DNA of 64,000 bases from Saprospiraceae bacterium (GCA_041741095.1 JBGSKQ010000080.1:15850-79849); one strand, 5' to 3'. Shown: positions 12,506 through 62,450, numbered from the stretch's first letter. Made by a program: numbers and translations. The notes: generated by a model not told the origin, from the letters alone.

Positions 12506-12658
12506 GTGGAGGTGGTGGATTTAAGATATTGAGTAAGCTTTCTTTCGCCCAAAGTTGGAAACATCCACCCATTAATCCTAATCCTTTTTGAAAGGAAGCC
12601 TACAGCGAAGACCGTGGTTCCCCCTGCTGCGGGTAAGGACTGCTGTACTTGATAAAGG

Positions 12659-12697
12659 AAATCCCGGGGCCTGGAAGGGCTTCGGGATTTTTTTGTG
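12659..12697 (+). terminator. strong hairpin with GGAA tetraloop followed by a T7 run (plus-strand intrinsic terminator; possibly bidirectional)
   Basis: AAATCCCGGGGCCT-GGAA-GGGCTTCGGGATTT followed by TTTTTTT. On the minus strand the stem is followed by the weaker TTTCCTTTAT. It lies 150 nt downstream of the giant NTPase gene stop. Confidence 0.55.
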
Positions 12698-12843: not shown

Positions 12844-15800
12844 TTAATGCTTTATTAAATGTTCATCTTTTATACCAAGCTTTCCATCAATAATTCCATC
12901 TTGTCTTAAAATATAAGCACCACTAAATTCAGAAATTGAAAATTTTTGGCCGCTGCTTGGCTTGTGAAAAATCTGCTTCTCACCCAAAAGCGTCCAGCAA
13001 AGACTCAATTTGTTTCGCTGTAGAAACTCCAACAGCAAATCCTTGCGAATTAAAAAGCTGAATGGTTGGTCGGTGCCAACTGATGGATCAAAACAAACCA
13101 GTTCGCCATTTTCGTTTACACATTCGCCAGTCTGTTTGCCTTGTTGGAGGTTCATTTTCTGCCACAAGAATTGAGAAGGCTTAATTACGTTTCCATTTTG
13201 GTTTTTGTAACTTCCCCCACCGCAACCATACTCTTCGACTGGAACTACACCTTTGAAAGGACTGTCCCGGAATTGCCTCCAAATATTATTTCCTTGATAA
13301 GAGGTATCTTTTTCTTTTTCTCGAAAGTGCTTGTATGCAGGAGACCAATAGTATTCCTTTTCAAATATCTCGTAACGCTCTCGCTGGTTTGGCATCCATT
13401 CGTTCATAAAATGCTGTTTCAAAAGCCACACGTGTATTTTTGAAGCGTCCTTTTGCTTGACAAAATAGCTCCGTAAATGATACCATATCATCCAAGAGTT
13501 GCCTTCCTTTTCATGGACACCTACTTCCTCTTTGTACTCCCAATCTGGGAATGTGTACAGATTCAGCCATTCCTTACCATTCTTATCAACAGCATTCAGA
13601 AATTTTCGAGGGTCGGGTAAATCATCTGTTCTTTTGAGCCAACCATCAATGCCCCATTTTTCATAAGACGGGGGAAGCCACCAACCTTTTACTTTAGAGT
13701 GGTTTGAAAAGCTGGAATTCAAATGGAGAAAGGGATATGTCGGGTCAATATTCCTTACGAAGGGTTCCCAAGTTCCCTGGTAAGGTTCGGGCTTGTCGCC
13801 CCATTGCGAGACTTGGTGGTTGTCAGCAATAATGGCAAGTATCTCATGCAGGGCAATCCACTGGTATTTCTTGCCGATTCGTTCAGTATTCCAATTGCCC
13901 CAATAATCATACTCACGAGCCTTACTGTCAAACTCCCCGTGCCAATCCTTTCGCCAACCCAATTCAAAAACACGGCGGAAAATCCAACGAGCGATTTGTT
14001 GTGGTTCTATAGTTGAATGTCTTCTGAACTTAGGGTTTTGATTCAATGATTTTAAGTGACTGAGTATTCTTTTTCTGAATATCTCCTTTTGTTCAGTCTC
14101 AAGTTTGCTTTCAATAGAAACCACCAACGACTCATAAAAATCCGCCGTCATCTTTTTGAATTTGGAAAATTCATCTTCTGAAAGGCTGCCTTTGCTTAGC
14201 GGATCAAGGTATTTGCATACTTTTTCAAGTGCCTTGAAATTGCTTCTTGTACCGTTTGGCAAACTTTTTTTGAATTTTTGATACTCCTTGACAAGCGGAA
14301 AAGCGATTGAATGGAACTGCTCCATTTTGCTTCCAATGACATACCTGTTGAAATCCCATCCTAACACCGAATGCTCAATTGCGCCTTGGGCGCGGTTGAT
14401 AAATTCATTCTTTTTGAAAGTTTTAGAATCGTAATTGGTCTTGTACTTTTTTATGTCCTGTTCTGTTGGATAAGGTAGCGGTAGCTGGCTACCGTAAGGT
14501 GGACGTATCCTTTCAACCTCAATATCAATTTGTAAACCTGTGTATAGAGCATACTCGACTACCTGCCTTGCGTAATCTCGGAGCAAAATATGGGCAGGCG
14601 GTATCCCATCCTTGAAAATCTGGTCGTAAACGCATTGGGCAAGTTGTGCAATGTCAGGATGCTTGCCTGAATTGGTCGCCACACCTAAGGCTACTGCAAA
14701 AAGACGCTCCCTAACATAGGGGTCATTCACCTTCTCAAATTGTTGAAGTATCCGAGTTATTACAATGGGATAACCAGAAAGCAGCCTGACCAATGAAAGC
14801 GTCGCCGTATCCCGTAGGGTAATACTGGAGGAAGTCAATGTCCATGCAAGTATAGTGGCTGTCAGCCTTCTTGTTTCTTCTGACAAGAGGGATAAATCAT
14901 AGTCACTCCAAACCCAAGACAATAGCCTGTTAATAGCAGAACCCTTTGAGCGGAAGACCTCATGGACAAAAGGAGACCACCACCTGTCCAATGCTGCCAT
15001 TGACATGCCGATATGGTGATTATGAATCAAATCGGCGTTGTACGGATGGTCGGAAATAGGAGCGAGATGCAAAATTGTCGAGTTGAAAGAATCAACCAGC
15101 ATGTATCTATCCACCCAAGTAACACAGGTTTTTAAAATCTGATTTCTGTCAATCTTATCGGCCTTTCTCCAAAGCAGGCTATTTATAAAAGCGGTCGTTG
15201 CATACTGCCCAAACTGGTCATCTTTCAAAAGTTTAGAGGGTAAAACCGCCAATAGTTCTATCCCGAATTTTTCTGGCAGTAGGATAGCAAGCGCTTCCAA
15301 TATGCCAAGCTTCCCGTAAAAATTCCCACTGAAGTATTCGCTGAAAAAGCCCTTTCCTCTAAAGGCTTCTTTTGGCTTCTTAGGGTTCAAATGGGTTTCA
15401 AGTAAATGACGGGCTGCAAGAAAATCCCCAAACCGCTCGTAGTTGAACCGGACTACATCTACATATTCATCCTCCTCGTATTGCCAACTTCTATCTTCGT
15501 GCAAAATGCCCTCTCTCAGAAGTTCTATGAATATCTGGCTTCCATGTTCAGGGTGAAATTCACGGAAAAGCTGTTCTGCTGGTAAGTGTTCTATATTACC
15601 CAAACCATTATTTGCCATCCCTTCCGCCAATCGTTCCAATCCATTTTTTACAAGATTCAAATTTTCGGCATAATCCAACTTTTTGGCGATTTTATGGTTG
15701 ACGACAGCAAGATAGTCTTTGTAAATGGTCGTAATCCCATTTAGTCCTTCGGGGATTATGCGCTTACCACTATCCCGCAGGCTCCGGCATAGAAGTAACA

Positions 15801-17532
15801 AAAGTTGTGGCCTTGAAAATTCTGGTGCGAGTATTGGGAATCTCGGCTGTTCTAAGCCAAAATAGCGGGCAAAGTGTTTGACAGCCTCTAACTCGTTGTC
15901 TTCAAAACCAGTGTGTTCCACCATTACAAAATAATTGCTGTCGTTTAAATGAGTGGGGACAACCGTTTTAAGGTAAGTATCACGAACCGCAAGAACAAGT
16001 CCTATGTATGGGTATCTTTTGACTTGTTCGGCAAACACAGTGAGCGAATCATGCCAGATAGATTTGCCTTCGCCTTCGTTGAGGGCATCTATTATAAACA
16101 ATATCCTTTCACCCAAGAAGCTGCCAATCCCATTCAAGGTTTGCAGAAAGGTAGCTGCATCACAACCCAATTGCATCTCTGAAAGGATTTGCTGCCAAAC
16201 ATTACTTCTGTCTTGTAGCTTATTGCCAAGAATAAGAATTGCCGGGGTTTTTGTTTTCTGCTTTTGGGCAGCTATATCCCCAAGAAGATGGGATTTTCCG
16301 CAACCTGCCTCCCCATGAAGTAGAAGACTTGGGTTTTGCGCAAGTTGAAACGTTTGTGTATGTATTTGTTTATAGAAGGCGTTGATGGCGCCTGTGATAT
16401 TTCGCACTTTACTTTCCTCCGAATCAAGCGGTCGAGTAGCATATTGGCGCTTTTCGTGTGGTATCTTTTCCCGTTCTTCTGATTGGATGTCCCAGATTTT
16501 TCGTTGAAAACGATGAACATCTTCATCCATCTTGTTCAAAACTTCTTTCAGTTCCTCAATTTGAATTTTACTTGGGGTTGACCACTCGGTTTTTTCGTGA
16601 AAATCGTGAAACCACGAGTGTTTTTCTTTGAAATAGGCTGCCATATCCAAACCTCCTGGCGCTTTCAACCTCGTACCCTCTTGAAGTGCCTGCAAAAGTT
16701 CATGAAAGTAGCTTCGCACCTTTTGTTTAAAAGCCTTCCCTCTGTTTAAACCCTCAAAGATTTGGGCCATCGGCAATTCAAAATTGAGTTCAGGCGTGTA
16801 GCGGTCTCCCAAACCCTTTATACTCAACTCAAGGTGGTGCTGAAACCACTTAACGTTCATTCCCAGCGAATTGGCGAAGGAGTAGGGTAAGGGATGGTAG
16901 CTATTAGCCACCAATAGTTCGTTCAACTTGCCAACCTTGATGCAGACGAAATCTTTATACTCCTTTGAAAAACTGGTCAAGATTCCTGCGAGATAGGTTG
17001 CTCCACCAGATTCCATGAAAAAACCACCACCCGACATTCCTTGTACGTTCTCATACCCGTCGCTGATGAGGGTGGTCAAATCCTCTTTTTGGGTACTTAC
17101 CTCAAAGCAATTTGGCAACCCAGGTCTAAATTGCCTTAACTCCCCCCGCAGCTTTTTCAAGCCATCATTGGCATTGGGAAAACCTACTGCCCAGCCGTCT
17201 TTCAAGTCAAAAAAATCGTTCAGGAACTCGAACTGCTGTGTCGGCTCACTCATCGGGAACGACTGGCGGGGGATTGCCAAAATGGCGAGGTCGTTTTCGC
17301 CCTCCTTTTCCTCAAAACTCAAAATGTGGTGGTTGCCATCGTCAAGGCATTGGTAGTTGGTTTGGTTGCTGATTTCCAAGCGCAGTTCTGAAAGAGATGT
17401 ATCTTTTATACAGTGCCATGCAGTGAATACGAAAACAAGGTCAGGGTGACTCGGTGGAAAATAGATGATGCCGCTGCCAGATTGGGAGCCTACAATTTTA
17501 AGGATGAAATGTTTGGGAGATTGGGAGTACAT
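12844..17532 (-). CDS. 1562-aa fusion protein: N-terminal trypsin-like serine protease, central P-loop (STAND/NACHT-like) NTPase, HEAT-like repeats, and an uncharacterised Trp-rich C-terminal region; candidate anti-phage protease/ATPase (Avs1b-like?)
   Basis: The protease triad sits in canonical context: TAWHC (His40, nt 17413-17415), NDLAIL (Asp81, nt 17290-17292), GMSGGG (Ser167, nt 17032-17034). Walker A is LLLHGEAGCGKSHLL (nt 16291-16314). Walker B is ILFIIDALNEG (Asp482, nt 16087-16089). A HEAT-like segment is NDPYVRERLFAVALG. Base composition is markedly AT-rich relative to the flanks. Confidence 0.8.
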   Translation of the reverse strand: MYSQSPKHFILKIVGSQSGSGIIYFPPSHPDLVFVFTAWHCIKDTSLSELRLEISNQTNYQCLDDGNHHILSFEEKEGENDLAILAIPRQSFPMSEPTQQFEFLNDFFDLKDGWAVGFPNANDGLKKLRGELRQFRPGLPNCFEVSTQKEDLTTLISDGYENVQGMSGGGFFMESGGATYLAGILTSFSKEYKDFVCIKVGKLNELLVANSYHPLPYSFANSLGMNVKWFQHHLELSIKGLGDRYTPELNFELPMAQIFEGLNRGKAFKQKVRSYFHELLQALQEGTRLKAPGGLDMAAYFKEKHSWFHDFHEKTEWSTPSKIQIEELKEVLNKMDEDVHRFQRKIWDIQSEEREKIPHEKRQYATRPLDSEESKVRNITGAINAFYKQIHTQTFQLAQNPSLLLHGEAGCGKSHLLGDIAAQKQKTKTPAILILGNKLQDRSNVWQQILSEMQLGCDAATFLQTLNGIGSFLGERILFIIDALNEGEGKSIWHDSLTVFAEQVKRYPYIGLVLAVRDTYLKTVVPTHLNDSNYFVMVEHTGFEDNELEAVKHFARYFGLEQPRFPILAPEFSRPQLLLLLCRSLRDSGKRIIPEGLNGITTIYKDYLAVVNHKIAKKLDYAENLNLVKNGLERLAEGMANNGLGNIEHLPAEQLFREFHPEHGSQIFIELLREGILHEDRSWQYEEDEYVDVVRFNYERFGDFLAARHLLETHLNPKKPKEAFRGKGFFSEYFSGNFYGKLGILEALAILLPEKFGIELLAVLPSKLLKDDQFGQYATTAFINSLLWRKADKIDRNQILKTCVTWVDRYMLVDSFNSTILHLAPISDHPYNADLIHNHHIGMSMAALDRWWSPFVHEVFRSKGSAINRLLSWVWSDYDLSLLSEETRRLTATILAWTLTSSSITLRDTATLSLVRLLSGYPIVITRILQQFEKVNDPYVRERLFAVALGVATNSGKHPDIAQLAQCVYDQIFKDGIPPAHILLRDYARQVVEYALYTGLQIDIEVERIRPPYGSQLPLPYPTEQDIKKYKTNYDSKTFKKNEFINRAQGAIEHSVLGWDFNRYVIGSKMEQFHSIAFPLVKEYQKFKKSLPNGTRSNFKALEKVCKYLDPLSKGSLSEDEFSKFKKMTADFYESLVVSIESKLETEQKEIFRKRILSHLKSLNQNPKFRRHSTIEPQQIARWIFRRVFELGWRKDWHGEFDSKAREYDYWGNWNTERIGKKYQWIALHEILAIIADNHQVSQWGDKPEPYQGTWEPFVRNIDPTYPFLHLNSSFSNHSKVKGWWLPPSYEKWGIDGWLKRTDDLPDPRKFLNAVDKNGKEWLNLYTFPDWEYKEEVGVHEKEGNSWMIWYHLRSYFVKQKDASKIHVWLLKQHFMNEWMPNQRERYEIFEKEYYWSPAYKHFREKEKDTSYQGNNIWRQFRDSPFKGVVPVEEYGCGGGSYKNQNGNVIKPSQFLWQKMNLQQGKQTGECVNENGELVCFDPSVGTDQPFSFLIRKDLLLEFLQRNKLSLCWTLLGEKQIFHKPSSGQKFSISEFSGAYILRQDGIIDGKLGIKDEHLIKH

Positions 17533-17565
17533 GCGCTAAAATTGAATGGATTTTGGCAAATTTAG

Positions 17566-18579
17566 TCAAAGCTCGTAAAATCCATCCGGCAAGTGTTCGA
17601 TGCGAAAATTAAGCATTTTGGCAGCATGTGGTTCATTGTGAAAAATGTCTTTGTGCCGAGGTGTTTCGTCATTGAAAAGAAACACGGTTGGTTCTGGCTT
17701 GCCCAATCGGGAAGCTGCAATCCTGACAAGCGTTTTCTTTGCTGGGAATCCGCCATTAGCTGCACAAAAGGCAAAATAGCTGCAATCAATCAGTCTCAAC
17801 AAGTCTGGCGAGGTATTTCCAGCACTTCCGTGGTGGGAAACCTTTACCAAATCCAGTTTCAACGGATTTTCATCGGAGCATTTGAACTTGTTTCTGAGGC
17901 TTTCTGCAACGACCGAAGGATGGCTATCACCAAGGAAAAGCACTCGCCGCTCTTGATGCTCAAACAAAAAAGCAATGCTGCTTCCGTTCCAAACCCCAGT
18001 GTCTTCCTTGAAAGGCGTCTTCATCAGATTTTCGATAGGAATATCGTAGTCAAAAGTCCCAGCAATTGGCTTTGCATTTCTTGTCTTTATTTCCTCTACA
18101 CTCCACACAGTAAGCGCACCGTCAAGTTTAGCATCGTCGGGTGAAAGCATCGTGATTTTTGAACCAAAGCAATTGATGGTAGGCAAATCGGAAGTGAACC
18201 GCTGGTCAGGGCATTTTCCTTGTTCAATCAGGTAGTCCCGTAGCTTGATGCCTTGCTGTACACTGATTTTTTCAGAATCGTCTGGCACAGTCGCCATACT
18301 TGGGTTGAACCAAAATTCGGTTACGAAATCAGCAGGAAAATCGGCATCTTTCAAAAAGGCAAGTATGCCGCTGATATGGTCCTGGTCAATGTGAGTTATT
18401 ATCCAAACGTCTATCTTCTCATTTCTTTCAGAAATGGCATTCAGCGACTTTTTTAATCTGACTTTATAAGTTTTTTTGAAACCACTATCTATAAGGATAT
18501 TCTTTAGATTTCCATTTTTATCAAGGAATCTAATATGAATAGTGTCAGCGTTTCCTGAGGGCAAAAAATGTATTTGCAT
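17566..18579 (-). CDS. MBL-fold metallo-hydrolase (ComEC-type beta-lactamase fold; predicted nuclease; Avs1a-like?)
   Basis: The motif THIDQDHISG (nt 18376-18393) is a HxDxDH variant of the canonical HxHxDH motif. Also present are NILIDSGF, LFLGDSH and VSHHGSAGN metal-ligand-like segments. The gene lies 33 nt upstream of, and co-oriented with, the giant NTPase gene. Confidence 0.8.
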   Translation of the reverse strand: MQIHFLPSGNADTIHIRFLDKNGNLKNILIDSGFKKTYKVRLKKSLNAISERNEKIDVWIITHIDQDHISGILAFLKDADFPADFVTEFWFNPSMATVPDDSEKISVQQGIKLRDYLIEQGKCPDQRFTSDLPTINCFGSKITMLSPDDAKLDGALTVWSVEEIKTRNAKPIAGTFDYDIPIENLMKTPFKEDTGVWNGSSIAFLFEHQERRVLFLGDSHPSVVAESLRNKFKCSDENPLKLDLVKVSHHGSAGNTSPDLLRLIDCSYFAFCAANGGFPAKKTLVRIAASRLGKPEPTVFLFNDETPRHKDIFHNEPHAAKMLNFRIEHLPDGFYEL

Positions 18580-18591
18580 AATATTAAAAGC

Positions 18592-18614
18592 GATACTTTT
18601 TGAGCAAAAGTATC
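18592..18614 (-). promoter_or_regulatory. hairpin that may terminate the upstream HTCS gene and contains a Bacteroidota-type -7 promoter box for the island operon
   Basis: GATACTTTT-tgagc-AAAAGTATC forms a 9-bp stem. On the minus strand it reads TACTTTTG (nt 18605-18612), which matches TAnnTTTG, 26 nt upstream of the MBL ATG. On that strand the stem is followed by GCTTTTAATATT. Confidence 0.35.
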
Positions 18615-27376: not shown

Positions 27377-28087
27377 TTAGAGTTTTAAATAAAACTCACC
27401 CGTCAATGCTTTGTACGCCGTTGTCCAATCGTTTGCCTCATTGTCGTTGATAACCAAATCATCCTTTTCCATTGGTTTTAACTTCCCTTCAAACTGCAAA
27501 AGCAGCCTTTCGATAGGTTTGTCGGCTTTGGGTTTTACCTCCGTCATTTTGGTGCAGTAGAGGTTGTAGGTATTGGCCAATTCCTTGAAGCGCAAGCCCT
27601 CCATATAGGGCAGGATGAGGCAAAATTTGCCGTTTTCTTTCAACAGTTTGCGAGCGGAGCGCAGCAGGTCGCCATGTGGCAGTTTCACGGTGTGGCGGAC
27701 GGAGGTTTTGTCCTGGCTGCTGGAGAAAGTGCCGCCGGAGAAGAATGGCGGGTTGCTTACGATGAGGTCGTATTCGGCGTCCCTGTTTTTTGAAAAATCC
27801 TGGATGGAAGTTTGAAAAGCTTGAAGGCGTTCGGCCCAGGCGGTGTTTAGCATGTTTTGGGCGGCTTGTGCGCAGGCTTCTTCGTCAATTTCCACGGCGT
27901 GGATGCTGGCCTTGGTTGCCCTTTGTGCCAACATGATGGCTATGACGCCGGTGCCGGTGCCTACGTCCAAGATGCGGGAAGCGGAGTCCACATCAGCCCA
28001 TGCGCCCAGCAGCACACCGTCCGTGCCGACCTTCATGGTGCATCGATCTTGTTCGATGGAAAATTGTTTAAACTGAAAGGGTTTCAT
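27377..28087 (-). CDS. tRNA1(Val) (adenine37-N6)-methyltransferase-like SAM-dependent methyltransferase (YfiC/TrmN6 family)
   Basis: Start chosen at ATG 28087 (MKPFQFKQFSIEQDRCTMKVGTDGVLLGAWA). SAM motif ILDVGTGTGVIAIMLAQR. Catalytic motif SNPPFF. Confidence 0.8.
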   Translation of the reverse strand: MKPFQFKQFSIEQDRCTMKVGTDGVLLGAWADVDSASRILDVGTGTGVIAIMLAQRATKASIHAVEIDEEACAQAAQNMLNTAWAERLQAFQTSIQDFSKNRDAEYDLIVSNPPFFSGGTFSSSQDKTSVRHTVKLPHGDLLRSARKLLKENGKFCLILPYMEGLRFKELANTYNLYCTKMTEVKPKADKPIERLLLQFEGKLKPMEKDDLVINDNEANDWTTAYKALTGEFYLKL

Positions 28088-28493
28088 TGCGGTCACTTGC
28101 ATCTGTTGCCTTTTTGTGCTTGAACAGGGGCAGAAATAGCCCCGCCCAACTGCCTGCATAAATCCCCGCATAGTTACATACCATGTCCAATAATTCAAAA
28201 TTGCGGGAGGGAATGAATGCTTGGCTGCACTCTTCCAGGGTGATGCCAAAGGTGATCAGCCAGCTTCCCACTAACACCTGGAAGCCATTGATGTTCAGGC
28301 GTTTCTGCTTTAAACTGCCGTTGAGCAAAAAGGTCAAAGTGCCCAAAATACAGAAGTGCATTCCTTTGTCGCCCAAGGGCATGTTTCCCATTATATTTTT
28401 GATGGACATGCCAATCGGCATTTGTAAACCAATGGAAAAAATGACCAGAAAAAATGCCAGGAAAGCCAGTGAAGTAAGCGTTTTGAGCAGCAT
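28068..28493 (-). CDS. VanZ-like family membrane protein
   Basis: 141 aa with 4 hydrophobic spans. The spacing DKGMHF...LEECSQAFIPSRNFELLDMVCNYAG is typical of VanZ. Its 3' end overlaps the next gene's start by 20 nt. Confidence 0.55.
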   Translation of the reverse strand: MLLKTLTSLAFLAFFLVIFSIGLQMPIGMSIKNIMGNMPLGDKGMHFCILGTLTFLLNGSLKQKRLNINGFQVLVGSWLITFGITLEECSQAFIPSRNFELLDMVCNYAGIYAGSWAGLFLPLFKHKKATDASDRNETLSV

Positions 28494-32972: not shown

Positions 32973-35360
32973 TTATTTTCTAATGATCGCTACATCGCCC
33001 TCGAAAATTTCCTTTCTGCCGTCTGCATATTCCACTTCGGCCCAATACACGAATACAGCCGGATCCATAAACCTGCCATTGAACCTGCCGTCCCAGCCTA
33101 TTTGTTCCTTATTAGGTTGGAAATCATGTTTTTCAAACATCTTTTCCCCCCAGCGGTCAAATACCATAAGGGTGTTCACTTGCTTCACCGAACGGTCGGT
33201 GTACACCGTAAAAAAGTCGTTGATGTTGTCGTTGTTGGGCGAGAATGCATTGGGGATGTAAACGGCATCCGACTTTTCGACGATAATCCTCAGGTAATCC
33301 CTGGCATCGCAGCCGTTTTTGTCCACAATCCTGGCGGTTACAGTGGTAGTGTAGTAAATGTTGTTGATCCAAGGCTCCATGCAATCCGTACAGGACAGGA
33401 ATTCTGGTTGCTGCCAATTGATGTAAAAAGAATCGAGCAGGTTGGTCAGGGCCTGTACCTGTGTGCTGTCGCCCAAATCAAGAAAAATATCCGGGCCCAA
33501 CTCCAACAGCACCTCCTCTGGTTGGTCAATAAAAAAAGTTGTGTCAAACATGCACCCGAATGTATCCAAAACTTCCAGGGTATAATTGCCAGGGGGCATC
33601 CGCACATAGTCGGCTACATTCTGCCACTCGCCTCCATTGAGCGAAAACTGATAGGGTGGCGTACCGCCTACCACATTTTCGATAAAAAACTCTGCATCGT
33701 CGGCGCCATAGCAAGAAACAGGCCTTCCATCGCTGAGCAGTGACTCCGGCCCTGGCACTATTTCAATCACTACTGAATCGCTCAATTCACAGCCGTCCGG
33801 GTGCATCAATGTCACTTTCACTTGTACCGTCGTATCCGGTGAAAATTGCCGGACAGGGCCGCTGCCGCCATCGTCCCAGATGTACAGGCACTGATCGCAG
33901 GCAGGCACGGTAGCGTCCACTTCCACATATTCGTCACGGCAAACCTTTGGCAAATCATCCAGCACTGGGCCAGGGAAACCGCATCCTGTGCGCAAAACCC
34001 AAAAGTCGTTGGCGCCCCTGCTGTCTTCCGATTTGTAGGGCGGACTAATACCGGAAGCAGATATGCCTGCCATGATGTAACCATAGCCATGCGCACGGGC
34101 AATGTGCTCAAATTTGTCGGCTTGGGTGCCTCCCAGCGATTCGTCCCAAAGTTTATTTCCAGAGGGATCTAAGAACAAAACCCAACTATCACTGACACCT
34201 ATGAGTTCCGAACTTTTATTGCCCACGCCGGATATAGAATCGGGCAGCGAGAATGACACCCCTACGGCCATATAATAGCCTATTGGATTCTGGGCGGCGG
34301 CATAGCCGATGTCAGCCGATTGGCCGCCGTACCTTTTGTCCCAGTTGATACCGCCGGAGTCGTTGATGCTAATAAACCAAGCGTCCCGTTGCCCAAACCC
34401 GCTTTGTGAAACTGAATGGCCGCTCAGCAGGTAGCTGTTGCCGGAGGCGGTCAAAATATCGTTGCAGGAGTCCTCGTTGTCGCCCCCAAAGCTCCTTTGC
34501 CAAAGGATGTTTCCAAAATCGTCAATACGGACGACCCAATAGTCATTCAGGCCAAAAAGTGGCGATGTTTTATCTAAACCAATCGGAGAGGTTGATTGCC
34601 CCGCCAGGATGAAACCGCCGCCATGGGCTATTTCGGCATCGTTCAAAATATCTTCGCCGCTGCCACCGATGGTTTTATCCCACAGCACATTGCCCAGGGC
34701 ATCTATCCTGACGACCCAAAAATCATTGTTTCCCCTTGAGTTTTCGCTTTTTTCAAAACCAATATCAGAATTGGAATGCCCTGCCAGCAAATAGCCTGAT
34801 CCATCGGGTATGGGCAAGATGACCCTTATCAAATCGCTGTCAACACCGCCGAAAGTTTTTTCCCATTCCACATTGCCCAAGGGATCGGTTTTGATGAGCC
34901 AGGCGTCAATTACGCCCCGTAGTTGCTCGGAATGGTCCTCCCATTTGTTTGATCGGGACTCGCCGCCTAAAATAAACCCTCCGTCAGGAGCCTGCCTTAT
35001 TTCCCAGAGCCTGTCCTCCGCATCGCCGCCCAAGCGTTTTTCCCATTCCATGATGCCGCTTCCATTGGTTTTTATCAACCAAAAGTCACCGGTACGGGTG
35101 GGCCATTCCACGGTATCTTTAGTGACAGTGGAAATCTCCGTGCCCGAGGCTGGGTTAAGGGTATTGGTAAAACCGCCAAATATATAGCCGCCATCATCGG
35201 TCAGTGAAATGGCATTAACTTCTTCGTAGCCAATGCCGCCGTAAGTATGTTCCCATTCTATGGTAAGTTGCGCAAAGGAGGGGTTCGGTAGGAGTAGCCA
35301 CCCGAAAAACAAAAAAAAGGATGTTGAGGACCAAATGCATTTTTGGTAGTGTGGGTTCAT
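32973..35360 (-). CDS. T9SS type B sorting domain-containing protein with N-terminal propeller-like repeats
   Basis: There are about 9 repeats of the pattern GG...D......DGG(Y/F)ILAG.S.S.........G..D.W(V/L)(V/I)(R/K)(I/T)D..GN..W(D/E)K. One SprB-like repeat follows (GGTPPYQFSLNGGEWQ). The C-terminal tail is VYIPNAFSPNNDNINDFFTVY...FDRWGEKMF...WDGRF. Confidence 0.85.
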   Translation of the reverse strand: MNPHYQKCIWSSTSFFLFFGWLLLPNPSFAQLTIEWEHTYGGIGYEEVNAISLTDDGGYIFGGFTNTLNPASGTEISTVTKDTVEWPTRTGDFWLIKTNGSGIMEWEKRLGGDAEDRLWEIRQAPDGGFILGGESRSNKWEDHSEQLRGVIDAWLIKTDPLGNVEWEKTFGGVDSDLIRVILPIPDGSGYLLAGHSNSDIGFEKSENSRGNNDFWVVRIDALGNVLWDKTIGGSGEDILNDAEIAHGGGFILAGQSTSPIGLDKTSPLFGLNDYWVVRIDDFGNILWQRSFGGDNEDSCNDILTASGNSYLLSGHSVSQSGFGQRDAWFISINDSGGINWDKRYGGQSADIGYAAAQNPIGYYMAVGVSFSLPDSISGVGNKSSELIGVSDSWVLFLDPSGNKLWDESLGGTQADKFEHIARAHGYGYIMAGISASGISPPYKSEDSRGANDFWVLRTGCGFPGPVLDDLPKVCRDEYVEVDATVPACDQCLYIWDDGGSGPVRQFSPDTTVQVKVTLMHPDGCELSDSVVIEIVPGPESLLSDGRPVSCYGADDAEFFIENVVGGTPPYQFSLNGGEWQNVADYVRMPPGNYTLEVLDTFGCMFDTTFFIDQPEEVLLELGPDIFLDLGDSTQVQALTNLLDSFYINWQQPEFLSCTDCMEPWINNIYYTTTVTARIVDKNGCDARDYLRIIVEKSDAVYIPNAFSPNNDNINDFFTVYTDRSVKQVNTLMVFDRWGEKMFEKHDFQPNKEQIGWDGRFNGRFMDPAVFVYWAEVEYADGRKEIFEGDVAIIRK

Positions 35361-38705: not shown

Positions 38706-41700
38706 TTATCGGACCAGTGTCACATCCCCTTCAAACAAAACCTCTTCGCCGTCCACAAACTCAATAACGGCAAACCAGACGAACACGGCTGGATTGAGGC
38801 TCTGTTGCCTGTATGTTCCGTCCCAGCCATAAACCGGATCATTGGGCAAGAAATTATAGTATTGGTGTACGGTTTCCCCCCATCGGTCGAACACGAGGAA
38901 TTCCTTCACCTTCACGGCCTCCTGCCCCGTGTATATCATGAAAACATCGTTCGAGCCATCGCCATTGGGCGAAAAGCTGTTCGGGACGTAAACGTGCCTT
39001 TCTTTTTTTACAAAAACCGTCAGGTCGTCGCTCGAACGGCAGCCGTTGGTGTCTATCACTGTCACTTCCACGAATGTTTGCTGGGTAGGTTCAAACGCCA
39101 TTTCATCGCAGGGCATTCCGTCGCAGTCCATCATGTCGGAAGGCGTCCACAGTATCGTATCCAATTGCGAGGGCGGCAGGTTGTAAATTACCTGCAAAGT
39201 GGCGGTTTCGCCCAAATCTAATACCAGATCGGTGCCCAGTTCCACGTTCAATTGTTCCGGCTCCGGCACATATACTATTTCCGACCAGGTGCATCCCTGT
39301 CCATCCGTCACCAATAGCTGGTAGTTGCCGGGGGCAAGCGGAGCGAAGAAATTATTGCTGCCATTGCTTTGGCCATCCAGGGCATACTGGTAAGGCCCAT
39401 TGGCAGGATCGGTTTCTACAGTAATAGCACCGTTTTCATCGCCAAAACAAGTAGGTGCTGATATGGTTAGTTCCCCTTGTGGCTCATTGCTGTATTGAAA
39501 AACTTCCACATCATCGGAGTCCGTGCAGAAATTGCCTAAATCGGTCACGGTCAGCGTATAAATCCCGTTTGTATTGACCGTGATGAAAGGCGAATTTGGG
39601 TTGCTAATTAAAATAGCCGGGTTGTCCGCCGACCACTCATAAGCCACTCCCGCTGAGCCGTTCCCTGTCAATTCGACTGGTGTTTGAAGGCAATCCAGCG
39701 TTTGGTCCGGCCCGGCCTCCACGGCTGGCAAAGTGAAATCGCCCGATATCGTCACCGCTTCTCCATTTTCGCAACCATTGGGCGCAATACCCAGCAGATA
39801 ATAGGTACCTGGTGCTGTTGCTACAAAACTGTTTCCGCTGCCGAGCAAAACCGTGTCAACCCCATTGATACTTGCCCAAGTGAACTGGACACCGCTAATA
39901 TCCGAACTGCCGCTGAGGGTGGTCGAAGTGACGAGGCAGTTCAGTTCCTGCGGCTGATTGATGGTGATGATAGGCGGGAAATCCGTATTATCGCTGATAG
40001 TGATAGAGGTGGTGTCGGCACAAGCTGTGAGTGGATCAAAAGCGATCAGTTCGTACATGCCGCCCACGTCCACCACCAAGCTGCCATTGGTTGAAACAGG
40101 GACGCCATTTTCCAACCAAACAAAACTCAAGTTGGGGGAACCCGTGCCTGTACCAGTCAAAATAATCTGTGAAATGGTGCAGTCCAGCAGTTCGCCGGGG
40201 GAGGAGGTGATGCTGGCTTCCACTACCATGCTTTGATCCTCCACTTCCACCGTAGCCGTGCCGCTGCAGCCGTTCGCAGTGACTGTCAAGGTGTAAAAAC
40301 CTGCCGCCCCGGCTTGTATGTTCGCTTGCGAAGGGTTGCCAAGAATTTCACCACCATTGGTCACCCAACTGAAAGTTGAACCAGCCAAGTTGGAGCCACC
40401 CGTCAAATCCGTTTGTGAAACAAGGCAATTCAGCGGTGCTGGCTGCACGATGCTCGCCTGTGGTATTTCATAAAAAACAATGGGCGTACCGACAGAAACC
40501 TGCGTACAGGCATCCCCCAAAATCACATTGCCCACTGCGTCAGCGCCGCCCGCCGCAACAGAGATATAGTAAGTGGATCCATAATCCATCAGGGCCGCAT
40601 CAAAACAGAAGGTAGGATTGTCGCTGCGCTCAATCTCATTGACGATGGTATTGCCATTGCCTTCGTGCAAAATGTATTGCAGCACATCGTCTGGGTCGAG
40701 GTACTGGCCGAGCGGGCTGTAAGTGGCCGTTTGGCAGCCGTCGCCACAAAGGGAAAGGGTCGCCGTGCCCATTGTGCCAATGGCCGTCACGCAATCGTTA
40801 GGGGTTATGGTGAAACTGCAGGTGGATGGGCAGCCATTGGCATCCGTTACTTGCACTGCATAGCCGCCTTCGCTAAGGTTATTTAGGTCAAAAACGCCCG
40901 CTTGCAAATTCGTCTGCGAACCGCCCGGCGTCCATGTAACAGAATATGGCGCTGTGCCTCCTGAAATATCCACACTGCCGCTGCCATCGGAAGCGCCCGG
41001 CAAGCTGACATTGCTGGTGGCATTGCTAACCAATTGTACCGCAGAGGCTGGTTGTACGATACTAAAATTGGCTGTTCCCGTGCAGCCGGAGGCATCCGTC
41101 ACCAACACGCTGTAATCACCCGCCGACAAGGCCGTTGGGTCTTCGGGGTTTCCAGTAATGGCGGGTGACCATTCAAATTGGTAAGGAGCGGTGCCGCCAC
41201 TCGCCGTCAGATTGATAGAACCGTCGTTTTCATCAAAACAAAGGATGTCTTGCGAAGTGCCACTAACGGCAATTGTTGCCTGATCATCGTCAATGGCAAA
41301 TGAAGCGGATGCGGTACAATTGCCGCCGTCGCTCACCGTCACGGTGTAGCTGCCTGATAGTTGGCCCGTGAGGTCTTCCGTTGTTTCGCCATTTGACCAT
41401 AAATAAGAATAAATGCCGTTGGGCGAAACAGTCAAATCAACGCCGCCATTGCCACCAACACAAAGGGTATTGGACGAGGCCAAGCCATTGATTGTGAAGG
41501 TGTTGCTGTTGTTGGGCACACTGTAGCTGGCCGTGGCGGAACAACCGTTGGCGGCCGTAACGGCCACATCATAAGTACCTGAAAGGATGCCACTCAAATC
41601 TTCCGTTATTTCACCATTTGACCATAAAAAACTGTAAGGCGATGAGCCGCCATTGATGGTCAAATCAATGCCGCCGTTGGCTGCGGCGCAGATGGAAGCC

Positions 41701-44700
41701 GTGATATTTTCCGAAATAATAGGCTCATCTGGATTGTCGGCAACTGAAAATGTGGCCGTAGCCGAGCAACTGCCGCCAGCGCTCACGGTTACTTCATAAT
41801 CGCCGCCGGGCAGTGCATTCAGGTCTTCTGTCGCTTCGCCATTTGACCATAAAAAAGTGTAAACTCCGGCAGGCGTCACGCCGATATCCACGCTGCCGTT
41901 TCCACTGGTACAGGCTGTATTTTCAACGGCCACACCCGTGATAGAAATGGCCGTGGTGTTGTTGCCTATGGTAAAATTGGCGCTCGAAGCACAGCCGTTG
42001 GCCCCGGTCACCTCCACAGAATAATCTCCGGCAGGCTGACCAGTGAGATCTTCAGAATTTGCTCCGTTTGACCAAACAAAAGAAAACGGGCCAACGCCAC
42101 CACTGATGGTCAAATCAATTGCCCCGTTATTTTCTCCGCAGATGGCAGAGGTGATGGTCTGCGAAATAACTGGATCGGCGGTGGTACTGCTGACGGTAAA
42201 GGAGGCTTCGGCAGTGCAATTGCCCCCGGCGCTCACAGTGACGGCGTAACTGCCGCCAGCGAGGCCGCTCAGGTCTTCCGTTGTTTCTCCATTTGACCAA
42301 AGAATGTCGTAAGTGCCTGAGGGCGAGATGCTTAAATCAATGCTGCCATTGTTGTTTCCGCAAAGGGTATTGGCGGCTGTGCTGCCGTCGAGCGTAATAT
42401 TTACACTGTTATCTGGCACTGTCGCAGAAGCCGTTGTGCTACAGCCGTTTGTCCCTGTGATGGTGACGTTGAAAACGCCTGCCGAAAGGCCGGATAGGTC
42501 TTCGCTGCTTTGGCTATTTGACCAAATGAAGGTGTAGGGCGCTGTGCCGCCGCTCACGGTCAGGTCAATGGTGCCGTCGCTTTGACCACAAATTTCATCT
42601 GTGACGGTTTGGGTGGTTGTTGGCGAAGCGGTTTGGTCATCAATGGTAAATGTAGCAGAAGCGGAGCAGGTGCCCAAAGCCGTGACTGTCACCGTGTAGC
42701 TGCCAACGGAAAGGCTGTCGAGGTCTTCCGTTGTTTCTCCATTTGACCAAACAATGTCGTAAGTGCCTGATGGCGTGACGCTTAAGTCTATGTTGCCATT
42801 GTCAAAATTACAAGTGTTGATGGGCTGCGCTATGCCATCCACTGTAAAATTGGAACTGTTGTTTGGCACGCTGAAGCTCGCCGTTGCGGAGCATCCATTG
42901 CCGCCGCTCACGGTTACTTCATAATTGCCAGGGGCAATGTTGGCGAGGTCCTCGCTGGTAGCGCCGTTTGACCAAATAAAAGAATAGGGTGGGGCAGCGC
43001 CCGAAACGCTTAGGTCAATGCCGCCGTTGCTTTCCCCGCAAATGGCTGCTGTGATGCTTTCCGAAATTTGTGGGTTTTGAACATCGTCGCCCACGGTAAC
43101 TGAGGCGGTCGCCGTGCAAAAATTGGCGTCGGTGACAGTGGCGCTATAGTCACCTGGGGCGATATTGCTGAGGTCTTCCGAGGTAGCGCCATTTGACCAT
43201 AAAAAGCTGTAAGGCCCGGTGCCATCCGTGGCGGTTGCGTTGATGCTGCCGTTGTTTTGGCCGCAGGTGGCCGCAGTTGGCGCCAGGGCCAAATCGGGCG
43301 GCGTGGTGAATTCAAATACTTGAAAATCAGCCACCTGTGTACAAGAGCCGCCCGCACTCACGGTGACGGTGTATATGCCAGCCGGGACATCTATAATGAA
43401 AGTGGACGTTTCGCCATTTGACCATAAATAAGTATAGCTGCCGGGTGGCGTGACGGTCGTTTGCACGGAACCATTGGGCGTGGAGCAAGAACTGTTTCCA
43501 GTGGCGATGCCCGTCACGCTGAAGGTCGCATTGTTGTTGGGGATGGTGACGCTGGCATTGGAAATGCAGCCCGCCGCCGAGGTGACGACCACGGAATAGG
43601 TGCCGGCCAGGACGCCGCTCAGGTCTTCGGAAACTGCGCCGTTTGTCCATGAGATTTCGTAAGGTGCCACGCCGCCCGTGATGGTGAGGTCGGCTGCGCC
43701 ATTGGGCAAATCACAGGTGGAGGCGGTTGGCGAGATGGACAAACTGGGGGCACCGCTATTGTCCGGTACGGTAAAATTGGAAATGGATGAACAGGAACCT
43801 CCACCGCTCACCGTGACGGAATATGTGCCAGGCGACAAGTCGAAAATGTCTTCCGTTGTTTCGCCATTTGACCATAATATGTCCAGCCCAGCGGGTGTGA
43901 TGCTCAAGTTGATAGAGCCGTTTCCATCGGTACAGGAGGTATTGGGCGTAATGGCCTCTGTGATGTTGATAGGAATAACATCATTGGGGACGGTGACATT
44001 GGTAACATTGGAACAGCCATTGCCCCCGGTAACGGTGACGGAATAGCTGCCCGCCGGCACGTCGAAGATGATTTGACCTGTTTCGCCATTTGACCATAAA
44101 TAAGTGAAAGGCGCTACCCCGCCGCTGGTGATGACGGTAGCCGATCCATTGCTCAAGCCGCATGAGGCAGCATCAAAAGTAGTGGTCAAAGAAGGCAGGT
44201 TGGGGTTGTCGGGAACTATGAAAGTGCCTGTCTGGGTGCAGGCGCCACCAGCGCTCACCGTGACGCTGTAGGAGCCAGGGGCAAGGTTGCTGAGGCTTGT
44301 GTTCGTTGAGCCGTTTGACCAAATATAATCGTAAGTGCCTGGTGGGCTTACATTGATACTAATGCTGCCATCATAGCTGCCCGGCAAGCAGGAGGTATTG
44401 GGTAAAATGGTGGGGTTGATGGTCAAGGTCACGCTGTTGTCAGGCACTGTAAATGCAGCCGTTTCCGAACAGCCATTGGCACCTGTCACGGTGACGGAAT
44501 AGCTCCCGGCGAGTACCCCGTTTTGATCTTCATTGGTGACGCCGTTCGACCAAAGAAAGGTGTATGGTGGAATTCCCCCATTGACGTTCAAATCAATTTC
44601 ACCGTTCAATTGCCCGCAAGTGGAGGGGGTAATAAAAGAGGAAAGCAGGGGCAAAATTGGCTGGTCAAATACGGTAAAAGTGGCCGTGCCGGTACAAGAA

Positions 44701-59340: not shown

Positions 59341-60252
59341 CTAAAATATACTCTGCTCCAATTTTGAGGTCAGCAATTCCAAAGCCTTCATGCCCATGAC
59401 CGAATTGCCTTTTTGGTTGAGCCGGGGGCCCCACACGGCCACGCTGTAAGCCTTTGGGTGGATGGCCACGATGCCGCCGCCGACCCCACTTTTGCCGGGC
59501 AGGCCTACTTCAAAGGAGAACTCGCCTGCTTCGTCGTAGAAGCCGCAAGTTTGCATGAGAGCGTTCAGGCGTTTAGTTTGGCTTTTGTTCAGGAATTGAG
59601 GGCGAAAGTTTGAACTGCCGTGATTGCAATAGAAAAGAAAAGCACGGGCCAATTCCTCGCAGGTCATTTCGATGGAGCAAATGTGGAAATAGAGGTCAAG
59701 TACCTCGTCCACCCCGTTGTGCAAGTTGCCAAATGATTTGAGGAAATAGGCCAGGGCAAAGTTTCGGAAGCCCGTTTTCCGTTCCGAGGCGGCTACGGTT
59801 CCATTAAAGGTGATACCGGGCCTGCCCGCAAGGTCGTCCACCAATGCGAGGACTTCCGCTTTCGGGTTGGCGCATTGGCTTATCAGGATGTCGCACACCA
59901 CGATGGCACCAGCATTGATGAGCGGGTTGCGGGGGATGCCCTTCTCGTATTCCAGTTGCACCAGTGAGTTGAAGCGGTTGCCCGACGGCTCCACACCTAC
60001 CCGATCCCACAGCCCTTCGCCTAGTTTGGAAATGGCCAGTGTGAGAGCAAATACTTTGGAAATGCTCTGGATGGAAAACTTTTTCTGGTAGTCGCCAAGG
60101 CCGTATTGCCCGCCCTCCAGCAGTTGTAGGCAGATGCCGAATTGGTCGGGGTTGACGTTGGCCAGTTCAGGGATGTAGTTGGCAGGCTGGCCTTGGCCGT
60201 GGAAGGGGGAGAGGTCTGTCAAGATGGCTTGAAGAACGGTGGCATAATTCAT
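59341..60252 (-). CDS. glsA: glutaminase A
   Basis: 303 aa. The segment FSIQSISKVFALTLA carries the Ser-x-x-Lys catalytic motif. NAGAI and GKSGVGGGIVA segments are typical of the Glutaminase family. Confidence 0.9.
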   Translation of the reverse strand: MNYATVLQAILTDLSPFHGQGQPANYIPELANVNPDQFGICLQLLEGGQYGLGDYQKKFSIQSISKVFALTLAISKLGEGLWDRVGVEPSGNRFNSLVQLEYEKGIPRNPLINAGAIVVCDILISQCANPKAEVLALVDDLAGRPGITFNGTVAASERKTGFRNFALAYFLKSFGNLHNGVDEVLDLYFHICSIEMTCEELARAFLFYCNHGSSNFRPQFLNKSQTKRLNALMQTCGFYDEAGEFSFEVGLPGKSGVGGGIVAIHPKAYSVAVWGPRLNQKGNSVMGMKALELLTSKLEQSIF

Positions 60253-60253
60253 A

Positions 60254-62314: not shown

Positions 62315-62450
62315 AGCTATAAAACTTAAATTCGAGAAAGTCTAATGAATTCAAAGGACGCAATTTAGTTAAAATCTTGGAGCCTGGTTATATTCGTTTA
62401 ACGATTTTCCTTCCTTTCGATTTTCATCAGTTTCTGGGTTATTTCAAAAC

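What the first reader, a model, noticed from the sequence alone, without database searches (positions are those of the whole stretch)
12844..18579. Two-gene island: MBL-fold hydrolase + 1562-aa trypsin-like protease/P-loop NTPase giant protein (candidate anti-phage STAND-type system; AVAST type 1-like but without a third gene)
On the minus strand an MBL-fold gene (18579 to 17566) is followed after 33 nt by a 1562-aa ORF (17532 to 12844).

The large protein has these modules, in order:
- A serine-protease module with an apparently intact triad in canonical order and context: TAWHC His40, NDLAIL Asp81, GMSGGG Ser167.
- A helical linker of about 230 aa.
- A P-loop NTPase: Walker A GEAGCGKS, Walker B LFIIDALNEG.
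- About 1000 further aa, including HEAT-like repeats and an unassignable Trp-rich C-terminus.

Protease + STAND-like NTPase + long repeat/sensor region, partnered with a predicted metallo-nuclease, follows the design logic of pattern-recognition/abortive-infection NTPases.

From memory, AVAST type 1 (Gao et al. 2020) comprises an MBL-fold hydrolase (Avs1a), a protease/ATPase (Avs1b) and a small third protein (Avs1c). This locus has counterparts of the first two, but I see no credible third ORF on either side. It is therefore either a two-gene variant or an unrelated, undescribed system with convergent architecture. I cannot test homology here.
Basis: partly seen in the sequence, partly recalled or inferred. 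Interest (0 to 1): 0.85.

Follow-up and report, generated by a model that had tools for sequence, protein, structure and literature searches.

The report
Avs2 protease–MBL nuclease anti-phage pair
These two genes are an ordinary, intact copy of an already described bacterial anti-phage system: an Avs2 sensor protein with a built-in protease, which on sensing a phage protein cuts open and activates the DNA-degrading enzyme encoded next to it.

Summary
In detail: both ORFs, all quoted motifs and their residue numbers are as described.

- **Family.** The 1562-aa protein is AVAST type 2 (Avs2), not type 1. It passes the NCBIfam Avs2 equivalog cutoff (1232 bits against 1000) and matches a solved Avs2 structure (9o4e, E = 3e-185).
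- **Effector module.** The N-terminal trypsin-like domain plus the adjacent MBL-fold gene form the published "trypsin–MBL" module.
- **Pairing.** In 79 Avs2 loci from reference genomes, the MBL gene is adjacent in 38 of 38 protease-type loci and in 0 of 41 others (p = 2e-23). No conserved third gene exists.
- **Pro-nuclease hallmarks.** The MBL protein has a ComEC-like fold, intact metal ligands, and exactly two disordered loops. Each loop carries a conserved Ile followed by a small residue (I105|S106, I172|A173).
[quoted passage not shown] Phage terminase drives Avs2 tetramerisation, which activates the protease. The protease makes two cuts in the MBL protein, releasing an indiscriminate DNase that causes abortive infection.

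Verdict: a known system in a Bacteroidota genome, of low novelty. Minor points of interest are the gene-order and metal-motif dimorphism among Avs2-linked modules and the signs of module swapping.

The parts
17566..18579 (-). MBL-fold pro-nuclease (337 aa), the separate partner of the trypsin–MBL effector module
   Evidence: - Pfam Lactamase_B, 47 bits.
- PADLOC LmuA-hydrolase 275 bits, RT-associated MBL 187 bits, Avs1a 126 bits.
- Profile hits to the ComEC MBL domains 9vc6, 9ic4 and 30bt.
- AF2 model with pLDDT 87.6 and pTM 0.89. The top Foldseek hit is the ComEC MBL domain 9ic4, E = 2e-11.
18376..18393 (-). Metal-binding motif H63-I-D65-Q-D67-H68 (ComEC-type HxDxDH); further ligands are D218 and H249/H250
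   Evidence: - H63, D67, H68, D218, H249 and H250 are invariant, and D65 is at least 90% conserved, in the 32-sequence alignment A2.
- ComEC 9ic4 shows the same H-P-D-A-D-H motif.
- The VcMBL D65A mutant abolishes defence.
18250..18276 (-). Gating loop 1 (aa 102-110) with the predicted cleavage site I105|S106
   Evidence: - One of only two segments with pLDDT below 50 in the AF2 model.
- '..(I)S-V-x-Q-G..' is conserved across the clade.
- Published sites lie after a conserved Ile followed by S/G/A.
18061..18084 (-). Gating loop 2 (aa 166-173) with the predicted cleavage site I172|A173
   Evidence: - The second and last segment with pLDDT below 50.
- [I/V]-[S/A/G] is conserved 4-5 residues before the invariant D177 (followed by Tyr in most sequences).
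12844..17532 (-). [quoted passage not shown]
   Evidence: - NCBIfam NF041813 Avs2 equivalog, 1232 bits against a cutoff of 1000.
- PADLOC Avs2 PDLC02163, 1207 bits, covering aa 16-1556.
- PDB 9o4e (Avs2), E = 3e-185 over aa 227-1543.
16888..17532 (-). Trypsin-like serine protease domain (aa 1-215; triad H40, D81, S167)
   Evidence: - The triad is invariant.
- Scanned on its own, the domain scores 26.1 bits on Pfam Trypsin_2 (cutoff 27.6), and 15 of 18 homologues match.
- The profile hits trypsin-HamA 9wh1 at E = 5e-14, then factor Xa.
- The AF2 model has pLDDT 87.7. Foldseek returns chymotrypsin-fold proteases such as Rv3671c, factor XI and HtrA.
16291..16314 (-). Walker A G407-E-A-G-C-G-K413-S414
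   Evidence: G407, G410, G412, K413 and S414 are invariant. There are weak Pfam hits to AAA_22, nSTAND6 and NACHT over this region.
16075..16101 (-). Walker B L478-FIID482-ALNE486
   Evidence: D482, A483, N485 and E486 are invariant.
12892..16821 (-). Conserved Avs2 body (aa 238-1547): helical linker, STAND NTPase and C-terminal helical-repeat sensor. Internal boundaries are approximate.
   Evidence: This is the span of the NCBIfam Avs2 model and of the alignment to the solved Avs2 9o4e. In characterised Avs2 the sensor binds the ATPase domain of the phage large terminase.
18592..18614 (-). Inverted repeat GATACTTTT-GCTCA-AAAGTATC overlapping a TAnnTTTG motif (TACTTTTG) 26 nt upstream of the MBL start codon; a candidate Bacteroidota-type promoter or operator for the two-gene operon. 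This assignment is inference.
   Evidence: Unique in the window and read directly from the sequence. Calling it a promoter rests on general knowledge of the Bacteroidota -7 consensus and was not tested.
12655..12694 (.). Strong hairpin between the Avs2 stop codon and the next gene; a candidate terminator marking the end of the island
   Evidence: 18-pair stem. The minus-strand RNA fold is -17.5 kcal/mol with z = -3.3.

Best explanation
The locus is a two-gene Avs2-trypsin-MBL anti-phage system, that is, AVAST type 2 carrying the trypsin–MBL effector module.

**Shown here**
- The large protein is an Avs2 family member with an intact STAND NTPase and an N-terminal chymotrypsin-fold serine protease with an intact triad.
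- The adjacent gene encodes a ComEC-like MBL-fold enzyme with intact metal ligands and two disordered insertions, each carrying a conserved Ile followed by a small residue.
- The MBL gene is strictly co-inherited with protease-type Avs2.

**Inferred by homology to the characterised Vibrio cholerae system**
1. In uninfected cells Avs2 is a monomer, its protease is inactive, and the MBL protein is an auto-inhibited pro-nuclease whose two loops block the active site.
2. On infection, the C-terminal sensor binds the phage large terminase subunit, with ATP.
3. Avs2 tetramerises, and the four trypsin domains assemble into an active C4 ring.
4. The protease cuts the MBL protein after I105 and after I172.
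5. The unmasked nuclease degrades DNA indiscriminately, which stops phage replication by abortive infection.
For: **Family membership**
- NCBIfam Avs2 equivalog above cutoff.
- Full-length match to the PADLOC Avs2 model.
- Solved Avs2 9o4e, E = 3e-185.

**Protease**
- Invariant H40/D81/S167.
- Profile hit to the solved trypsin-HamA 9wh1, E = 5e-14.
- Pfam Trypsin_2 in 15 of 18 homologues.
- Confident AF2 model with a chymotrypsin fold.

**MBL protein**
- ComEC-type motif and invariant metal ligands.
- Top Foldseek hit is the ComEC MBL domain.
- The only two segments with pLDDT below 50 are aa 102-110 and 166-173, and they contain the conserved I|S and I|A.

**Pairing**
- 38 of 38 protease-type Avs2 loci have the MBL gene adjacent, against 0 of 41 other Avs2 loci. 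Fisher p = 2e-23. It is on the same strand, with gaps of -104 to +25 nt except in two loci, where a frameshifted Avs2 gene leaves about 400 nt.
- The pair is also intact in all close relatives examined.

**Mechanism from the literature**
- PMC12642450: VcAvs2 plus VcMBL; terminase-dependent cleavage at I133/S134 and I232/S233; S151A and D276A abolish defence.
- bioRxiv 10.64898/2026.08.25.746987: cryo-EM tetramer and DNase activation.
- PMC12799240: gated pro-nuclease in Hachiman and in Avs.
- bioRxiv 10.1101/2025.09.03.673762.

**Mobility**
- GC dip across the island.
- Flanking genes differ even at 82% identity, and some relatives sit in defence islands or next to an integrase.
Against: - Nothing was tested experimentally for this ortholog.
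Relatives in reference genomes are only about 30% identical.
- The cleavage sites are predicted from conservation and model disorder, not mapped. The spacing between them is 67 residues, against about 99 in VcMBL and HamM.
- A subgroup of trypsin–MBL modules cleaves after Ser in a KSS motif rather than after Ile, so the P1 assignment is not certain.
- Alternative, non-terminase activators are known for some Avs2 proteins.
- In this window the neighbours are housekeeping-type genes (a hybrid two-component regulator and an FMN-binding protein), not a defence island.
Confidence: 0.87

Rival explanations
1. It is a genuine Avs2-trypsin-MBL system, but the sensor of this Bacteroidota clade is triggered by something other than the large terminase, such as another phage protein or a host perturbation. 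Downstream the mechanism is the same.
For: - The sensor region is only about 30-42% identical to relatives outside the immediate clade.
- The literature notes alternative activators for Avs2.
Against: - The Avs2 sensor type is reported as clade-specific.
- The whole body, including the C-terminus, aligns end to end with the Avs2 equivalog model and with the solved Avs2.
- Many C-terminal residues are invariant across the family.
Confidence: 0.08
2. It is an AVAST type 1 system that has lost Avs1c.
For: - It has the same MBL-then-protease-STAND gene order as type 1.
- The MBL protein has a sub-threshold Avs1a match: NCBIfam 176.6 bits and PADLOC 126 bits.
Against: - The large protein matches Avs2 above the curated cutoff and matches no Avs1b model at E <= 0.01.
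- The Avs1a score is far below its cutoff of 420.
- None of the 38 related loci has a conserved third gene.
Confidence: 0.02
3. It is a Lamassu/ABC-3C-type hydrolase-protease effector pair, or another non-Avs host of the trypsin–MBL module.
For: - The best PADLOC hits for the MBL protein and for the protease domain are 'LmuA' hydrolase and protease models.
- MBL relatives at 36-41% identity sit in Trypsin-CTD4/MComp1/SMC-like loci.
Against: - The protease is fused to a full-length Avs2 body.
- No SMC/LmuB-like or MComp1 gene is adjacent in the window.
- The resemblance reflects the shared, mobile effector module, not the sensor.
Confidence: 0.01
4. It is a non-defence or decayed locus: a ComEC-like DNA-uptake nuclease next to a housekeeping protease-NTPase, or an inactive remnant.
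For: - Flanking genes in the window are not defence genes.
- NCBI names some MBL relatives 'ComEC/Rec2 family competence protein'.
Against: - Both ORFs are intact, with every catalytic residue conserved.
- The MBL protein lacks the ComEC membrane domains.
- The pair is strictly co-inherited and sits in varied, sometimes defence-island, contexts.
Confidence: 0.02

Closest known systems
Vibrio cholerae Avs2-trypsin-MBL (VcAvs2 + VcMBL; PMC12642450; bioRxiv 10.1101/2025.09.03.673762; bioRxiv 10.64898/2026.08.25.746987)
   Same: - A two-gene architecture.
[quoted passage not shown]
- A separate ComEC-like MBL protein whose active-site Asp is at position 65 in both proteins.
- Two disordered loops, each with an Ile followed by a small residue.
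   Different: - The host is a Bacteroidota, not a Vibrio.
- The gating region is shorter: predicted sites at I105 and I172 are 67 aa apart, against 99 aa between I133 and I232.
- The protease residue numbering is shifted (H40/S167 here, H32/S151 in VcAvs2).
- Sequence identity to the Vibrio proteins was not measured, and nothing was tested experimentally here.
Solved Avs2 structure, PDB 9o4e (1484 aa)
   Same: The NTPase and sensor body are homologous: E = 3e-185, aa 227-1543 aligned to 167-1470.
   Different: Its N-terminal effector of about 166 aa is a different domain. About half of the Avs2 loci recovered here likewise carry a non-protease N-terminus and have no MBL partner.
AVAST type 1 (Avs1a MBL, Avs1b protease-STAND, Avs1c), for example EpiAvs (PMC12799240)
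   Same: It uses the same trypsin–MBL effector logic and the same MBL-upstream order. The terminase trigger and the Ile-gated pro-nuclease have been shown for EpiAvs1a.
   Different: The STAND/sensor family is different, there is no Avs1c, and the Avs1a and Avs1b model thresholds are not met.
Hachiman-trypsin-MBL (HamMAB; PMC12799240; PDB 9wh1) and ABC-3C/Lamassu hydrolase-protease loci
   Same: - The protease is homologous (9wh1, E = 5e-14).
- The MBL modules are homologous (PADLOC LmuA models; L086 and L087).
   Different: The sensor is a helicase/nuclease complex or an SMC-like complex that senses DNA, not a STAND protein that senses a phage protein.
ComEC/Rec2 C-terminal MBL nuclease domain (9ic4, 9vc6)
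   Same: It is the closest solved fold and shares the HxDxDH metal motif. It is a DNA nuclease.
   Different: ComEC is a membrane channel protein that is constitutively competent for DNA processing. It lacks the two gating insertions and has no protease partner.

Membership tests
Avs2 (AVAST type 2) | Full-length match to the curated Avs2 equivalog profile above its trusted cutoff | tested here: met
   NF041813: 1232.1 bits against a cutoff of 1000, aa 238-1547 on profile positions 1-1315 of 1317. PADLOC Avs2: 1207 bits over aa 16-1556.
Avs2 (AVAST type 2) | STAND-type P-loop NTPase with intact Walker A and Walker B | tested here: met
   GEAGCGKS with K413 and IIDALNE with D482 are both invariant in the family. 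Weak Pfam hits to nSTAND6, NACHT and AAA_22.
Avs2 (AVAST type 2) | Avs2-specific C-terminal sensor homologous to a structurally characterised Avs2 | tested here: met
   PDB 9o4e, E = 3e-185, with the alignment running to aa 1543.
Avs2 (AVAST type 2) | Activation by the phage large terminase, tetramerisation, and an anti-phage phenotype | not testable with these tools
   Known only for orthologues.
Trypsin–MBL gated pro-nuclease module | Trypsin-like domain with an intact triad, fused N-terminally to the sensor | tested here: met
Trypsin–MBL gated pro-nuclease module | A separate, adjacent, co-inherited MBL gene | tested here: met
   38 of 38 against 0 of 41 loci, p = 2e-23. Close relatives also keep the pair.
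Trypsin–MBL gated pro-nuclease module | ComEC-like MBL fold with intact metal ligands | tested here: met
Trypsin–MBL gated pro-nuclease module | Two disordered insertions, each carrying a conserved P1 Ile followed by a small residue | tested here: met
   pLDDT falls below 50 only at aa 102-110 and 166-173. I105|S106 and I172|A173 are conserved. That the loops occlude the active site was not measured.
Trypsin–MBL gated pro-nuclease module | Site-specific cleavage that unleashes DNase activity | not testable with these tools
   Shown for VcMBL, HamM and EpiAvs1a.
AVAST type 1 | Avs1a equivalog match for the MBL protein | tested here: not met
   176.6 bits against a cutoff of 420.
AVAST type 1 | Avs1b-type protease-STAND protein | tested here: not met
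   No Avs1b family appears among the NCBIfam or PADLOC hits at E <= 0.01; only Avs2 models do.
AVAST type 1 | A third gene, Avs1c | tested here: not met
   No hit for the flanking ORFs and no conserved third gene in 38 loci.
Lamassu / ABC-3C hydrolase-protease | SMC-like (LmuB/ABC) ATPase and middle-component genes in the operon | tested here: not met
   The neighbours are a hybrid two-component regulator and an FMN-binding protein. Genuine ABC-3C-type loci do have these genes.

The most novel reading that the evidence does not exclude
The most novel reading has two parts.

- The window's clade (MBL gene upstream, ComEC-type HxDxDH, short gating region) acquired its trypsin–MBL module independently of the dominant Bacteroidota clade (MBL gene downstream, HxHxDH). 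The donor would have been an ABC-3C/Lamassu-like or other STAND system.
- The sensor of this clade may have diverged to recognise a trigger other than terminase.

The first part is fairly likely, but it is only a further instance of a pattern already published. The probability given is for the second part, which is the more novel.
Probability: 0.08. Interest if true: 0.35.

Novelty: already known. Interest (0 to 1): 0.12.

Why it matters
It matters little beyond annotation.

- **Annotation gap.** The locus can be labelled confidently as Avs2-trypsin-MBL. The MBL partner is missed by current equivalog models: it falls below the Avs1a cutoff, and PADLOC calls it LmuA-like. Defence-system callers would therefore report a single-gene Avs2 and drop its obligatory nuclease partner.
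- **Survey result.** The MBL gene is adjacent in 38 of 38 protease-type Avs2 loci. Two gene orders and two metal-motif variants exist.
- **Possible use.** This is a small, useful datum for anyone building models of the trypsin–MBL module, or studying its repeated capture by sensors, in Bacteroidota.

Tried and rejected
- **Pfam on the full-length protein** gave no trypsin hit at E <= 0.01. Scanning the domain alone and its homologues resolved this.
- **First MBL alignment across clades** misplaced the window's gating loops, aligning V107 and R167/N168 with the conserved Ile/Ser columns. Realigning within the window's own clade gave I105|S106 and I172|A173, and the AF2 disorder agrees.
- **Sigma-70 promoter scan.** It found 16 sites against 10 expected. 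This is not informative and not appropriate for Bacteroidota. The TAnnTTTG assignment is from memory only.
- **tRNA or integration-site search.** No tRNA genes in the window. The island borders were not resolved beyond the GC dip and the hairpin.
- **Third-gene search.** Clustering flanking ORFs within 3 kb across 38 loci found nothing conserved. NCBIfam found nothing for the small flanking ORFs.
- **Defence-island test.** PADLOC on ten other window proteins returned only generic MotB-like and methyltransferase-like hits, so this window is not a dense defence island.
- **Comparison with VcAvs2 and VcMBL.** A direct sequence comparison was not possible because the sequences were not retrievable with these tools.
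- **Readings rejected.** AVAST type 1, Lamassu and competence-nuclease readings were considered and rejected; see the rival explanations.
Full report
**1.

- ORF listing reproduces both genes on the minus strand at the stated coordinates: 17566..18579 (337 aa) and 12844..17532 (1562 aa). They are separated by 33 nt.
- Translation and a residue check confirm every quoted motif and number: TAWHC/H40, NDLAIL/D81, GMSGGG/S167, GEAGCGKS/K413, LFIIDALNEG/D482, and MBL H63…H68.
- The pair lies in a low-GC patch, 0.42-0.46 against about 0.50.
- It is flanked by a Bacteroidota-type hybrid two-component regulator (Reg_prop/Y_Y_Y/HisKA/HATPase/REC/AraC) and an FMN_bind_2 gene.
- T9SS sorting domains and SprB repeats elsewhere in the window point to a Bacteroidota chromosome.

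**2. What the large protein is**

- It matches the NCBIfam equivalog 'AVAST type 2 anti-phage system protein Avs2' at 1232 bits (cutoff 1000) over aa 238-1547.
- It matches a PADLOC Avs2 model at 1207 bits over aa 16-1556, so that model already includes the N-terminal domain.
- The PDB holds a solved Avs2 (9o4e) that aligns at E = 3e-185 over aa 227-1543.
- No Avs1b model is matched.
- Among 352 homologues, several are named Avs2 by NCBI, for example in Olivibacter and Mucilaginibacter.
- In a 20-sequence alignment reaching 29% identity, the triad H40/D81/S167 and the Walker residues are invariant.

**3. The N-terminal domain is a trypsin-like protease**

- The full-length Pfam scan missed it.
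- Scanned alone, the domain scores 26.1 bits on Trypsin_2 (cutoff 27.6), and 15 of 18 homologous domains match.
- A profile of the domain hits the solved trypsin-HamA of Hachiman (9wh1) at E = 5e-14, then factor Xa and other S1 proteases.
- The AF2 model is confident (pLDDT 87.7). It superposes on chymotrypsin-fold proteases.

**4. The MBL protein**

- Pfam Lactamase_B matches.
- The best PADLOC matches are the Lamassu-associated hydrolase (275 bits), the RT-associated MBL (187 bits) and Avs1a (126 bits).
- NCBIfam Avs1a scores 176.6 bits, well under its cutoff of 420.
- The nearest solved relatives, by sequence profile and by fold, are ComEC competence-nuclease MBL domains.
- Metal ligands are intact: H63-x-D65-x-D67-H68, D218 and H249/H250. 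The HxDxDH variant is the ComEC type.

**5. The pair is a unit**

- A scan of one genome per species recovered 80 Avs2 loci. Using tblastn and ORF calling, I classified 79 of them; one was truncated.
- All 38 loci with a protease N-terminus have an MBL homologue immediately adjacent on the same strand. None of the 41 loci with another N-terminus, or none, has one. Fisher p = 2e-23.
- No other flanking ORF family is shared by more than 4 of the 38 loci, and the small ORFs flanking the window's pair hit nothing. There is therefore no third gene.
- Close relatives (36-82% identity) keep the MBL-upstream pair in entirely different neighbourhoods. These include HEPN, an integrase, and a NACHT-caspase/GmrSD/CHAT/HNH defence island. 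This, with the GC dip, indicates a mobile cassette.

**6. The mechanism is already published**

A literature search found four directly relevant studies.

- *Tuck et al., Science 2025 (PMC12799240).* The MBL protein is a gated pro-nuclease, activated when the partner trypsin-like protease cuts after conserved isoleucines in two disordered insertions. This was shown in Hachiman and in an Avs system.
- *PMC12642450.* This study reconstitutes V. cholerae VcAvs2 + VcMBL. It shows defence against T2, T4 and PhiV-1, terminase-dependent toxicity, cleavage at I133/S134 and I232/S233, and loss of function in S151A and D276A.
- *bioRxiv 10.1101/2025.09.03.673762.* This study describes the widespread trypsin–MBL module.
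- *bioRxiv 10.64898/2026.08.25.746987.* This study gives the cryo-EM structure of Avs2-trypsin bound to terminase. Terminase binding drives tetramerisation and a C4 ring of trypsin domains, which is required for MBL cleavage and DNase release.

**7. Testing the published hallmarks on this locus**

- In the window's own clade, a conserved '…K-I105|S106-V-x-Q-G…' matches the reported Ile-plus-small-residue rule.
- So does a conserved '[I/V]172|[S/A/G]173', which lies 4-5 residues before the invariant D177.
- The AF2 model of the MBL protein (pLDDT 87.6, pTM 0.89) has exactly two segments below pLDDT 50: aa 102-110 and aa 166-173. These are precisely the two sites.
- The middle fragment would be 67 aa, shorter than the roughly 99 aa in VcMBL and HamM.
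- These assignments are predictions. A subgroup of modules cleaves after Ser instead.

**8. Conclusion and comparison**

- The locus works like, and is a member of, the Avs2-trypsin-MBL systems.
- It is not AVAST type 1: the Avs1a, Avs1b and Avs1c criteria were each tested and not met.
- It is not Lamassu/ABC-3C: it has no SMC-like partner. The resemblance there reflects only the shared effector module.
- Novelty is therefore low.

**9. Minor things learned**

- Among reference genomes the commonest protease-Avs2 arrangement has the MBL gene downstream with a canonical HxHxDH motif (36 loci). The window's clade has it upstream with HxDxDH.
- The window's protease and MBL protein are more similar to the module of another STAND-like 1607-aa protein (L088) than to the clade-B Avs2 modules.
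- The window's MBL protein is also closer to the MBL proteins of ABC-3C loci than to those of clade B; its protease is not.
- Its Avs2 core is closer to clade B.
- This discordance fits the repeated module capture already reported.

Noticed in passing
L002-L080 (36 loci, e.g. L005 7929-13755) versus window 12844-18579, L049, L078, L082-L085 and L088: There are two configurations of protease-type Avs2. In most Bacteroidota reference genomes the MBL gene is immediately downstream and carries a canonical HxHxDH motif. In the window's clade it is upstream and carries a ComEC-type HxDxDH motif. The published description is 'typically upstream'.
   Followed up: partly
window 12844-18579 compared with L087 7001-9357, L088 7001-12804, and L003, L005, L012, L050: The effector-module tree and the sensor tree disagree. 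The window's MBL protein is closer to ABC-3C-type and L088 modules (208-219 bits) than to clade-B Avs2 modules (134-170 bits). Its protease is likewise closer to L088 (117 bits) than to clade B (41-69 bits), but not to the ABC-3C-type proteases (36 bits or no hit). Its Avs2 core is closer to clade B (612-660 bits in three of the four loci compared, 527 in the fourth) than to L088 (466 bits). This suggests the module was swapped or acquired independently.
   Followed up: partly
L082 5938-6804; L084 389-1678; L085 297-4898 and 10831-16770: Close relatives of the pair sit next to a HEPN protein, next to a tyrosine integrase, or inside a dense defence island (NACHT/Peptidase_C14 STAND, GmrSD, CHAT-TPR, HNH). 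The neighbours in the window are housekeeping-type genes.
   Followed up: partly
window 53546-56416 (-): A 956-aa protein with N-terminal TPR repeats and a C-terminal CHAT (caspase-like protease) domain. It has no PADLOC hit. The architecture is reminiscent of conflict-system proteases.
   Followed up: no
window 27377-28249 (-): A 290-aa methyltransferase-like ORF (PADLOC mad2 76 bits; weaker type II MTase hits). No partner restriction gene was examined.
   Followed up: no
window 18592-18614 (-): A perfect 9-bp inverted repeat, GATACTTTT-GCTCA-AAAGTATC, overlapping a TAnnTTTG motif 26 nt upstream of the MBL start codon. It could be a promoter or operator, or the terminator of the upstream regulator gene.
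   Followed up: partly
window 12655-12694: A hairpin with an 18-pair stem (z = -3.3 on the minus-strand RNA) and a T-run on the plus strand, between the Avs2 stop codon and the FMN_bind_2 gene. It probably marks the 3' edge of the inserted cassette.
   Followed up: partly
window 38706-45929 (-) and 32973-35360 (-): A giant 2407-aa protein with SprB repeats and a CHU_C sorting domain, and a 795-aa relative. Both are typical T9SS-secreted gliding or adhesion proteins of Bacteroidota.
   Followed up: no
window 60000-62400: A second low-GC patch (0.39-0.41) covering a 686-aa BNR/PKD/Por_Secre_tail secreted protein. It has no defence-family hit.
   Followed up: partly
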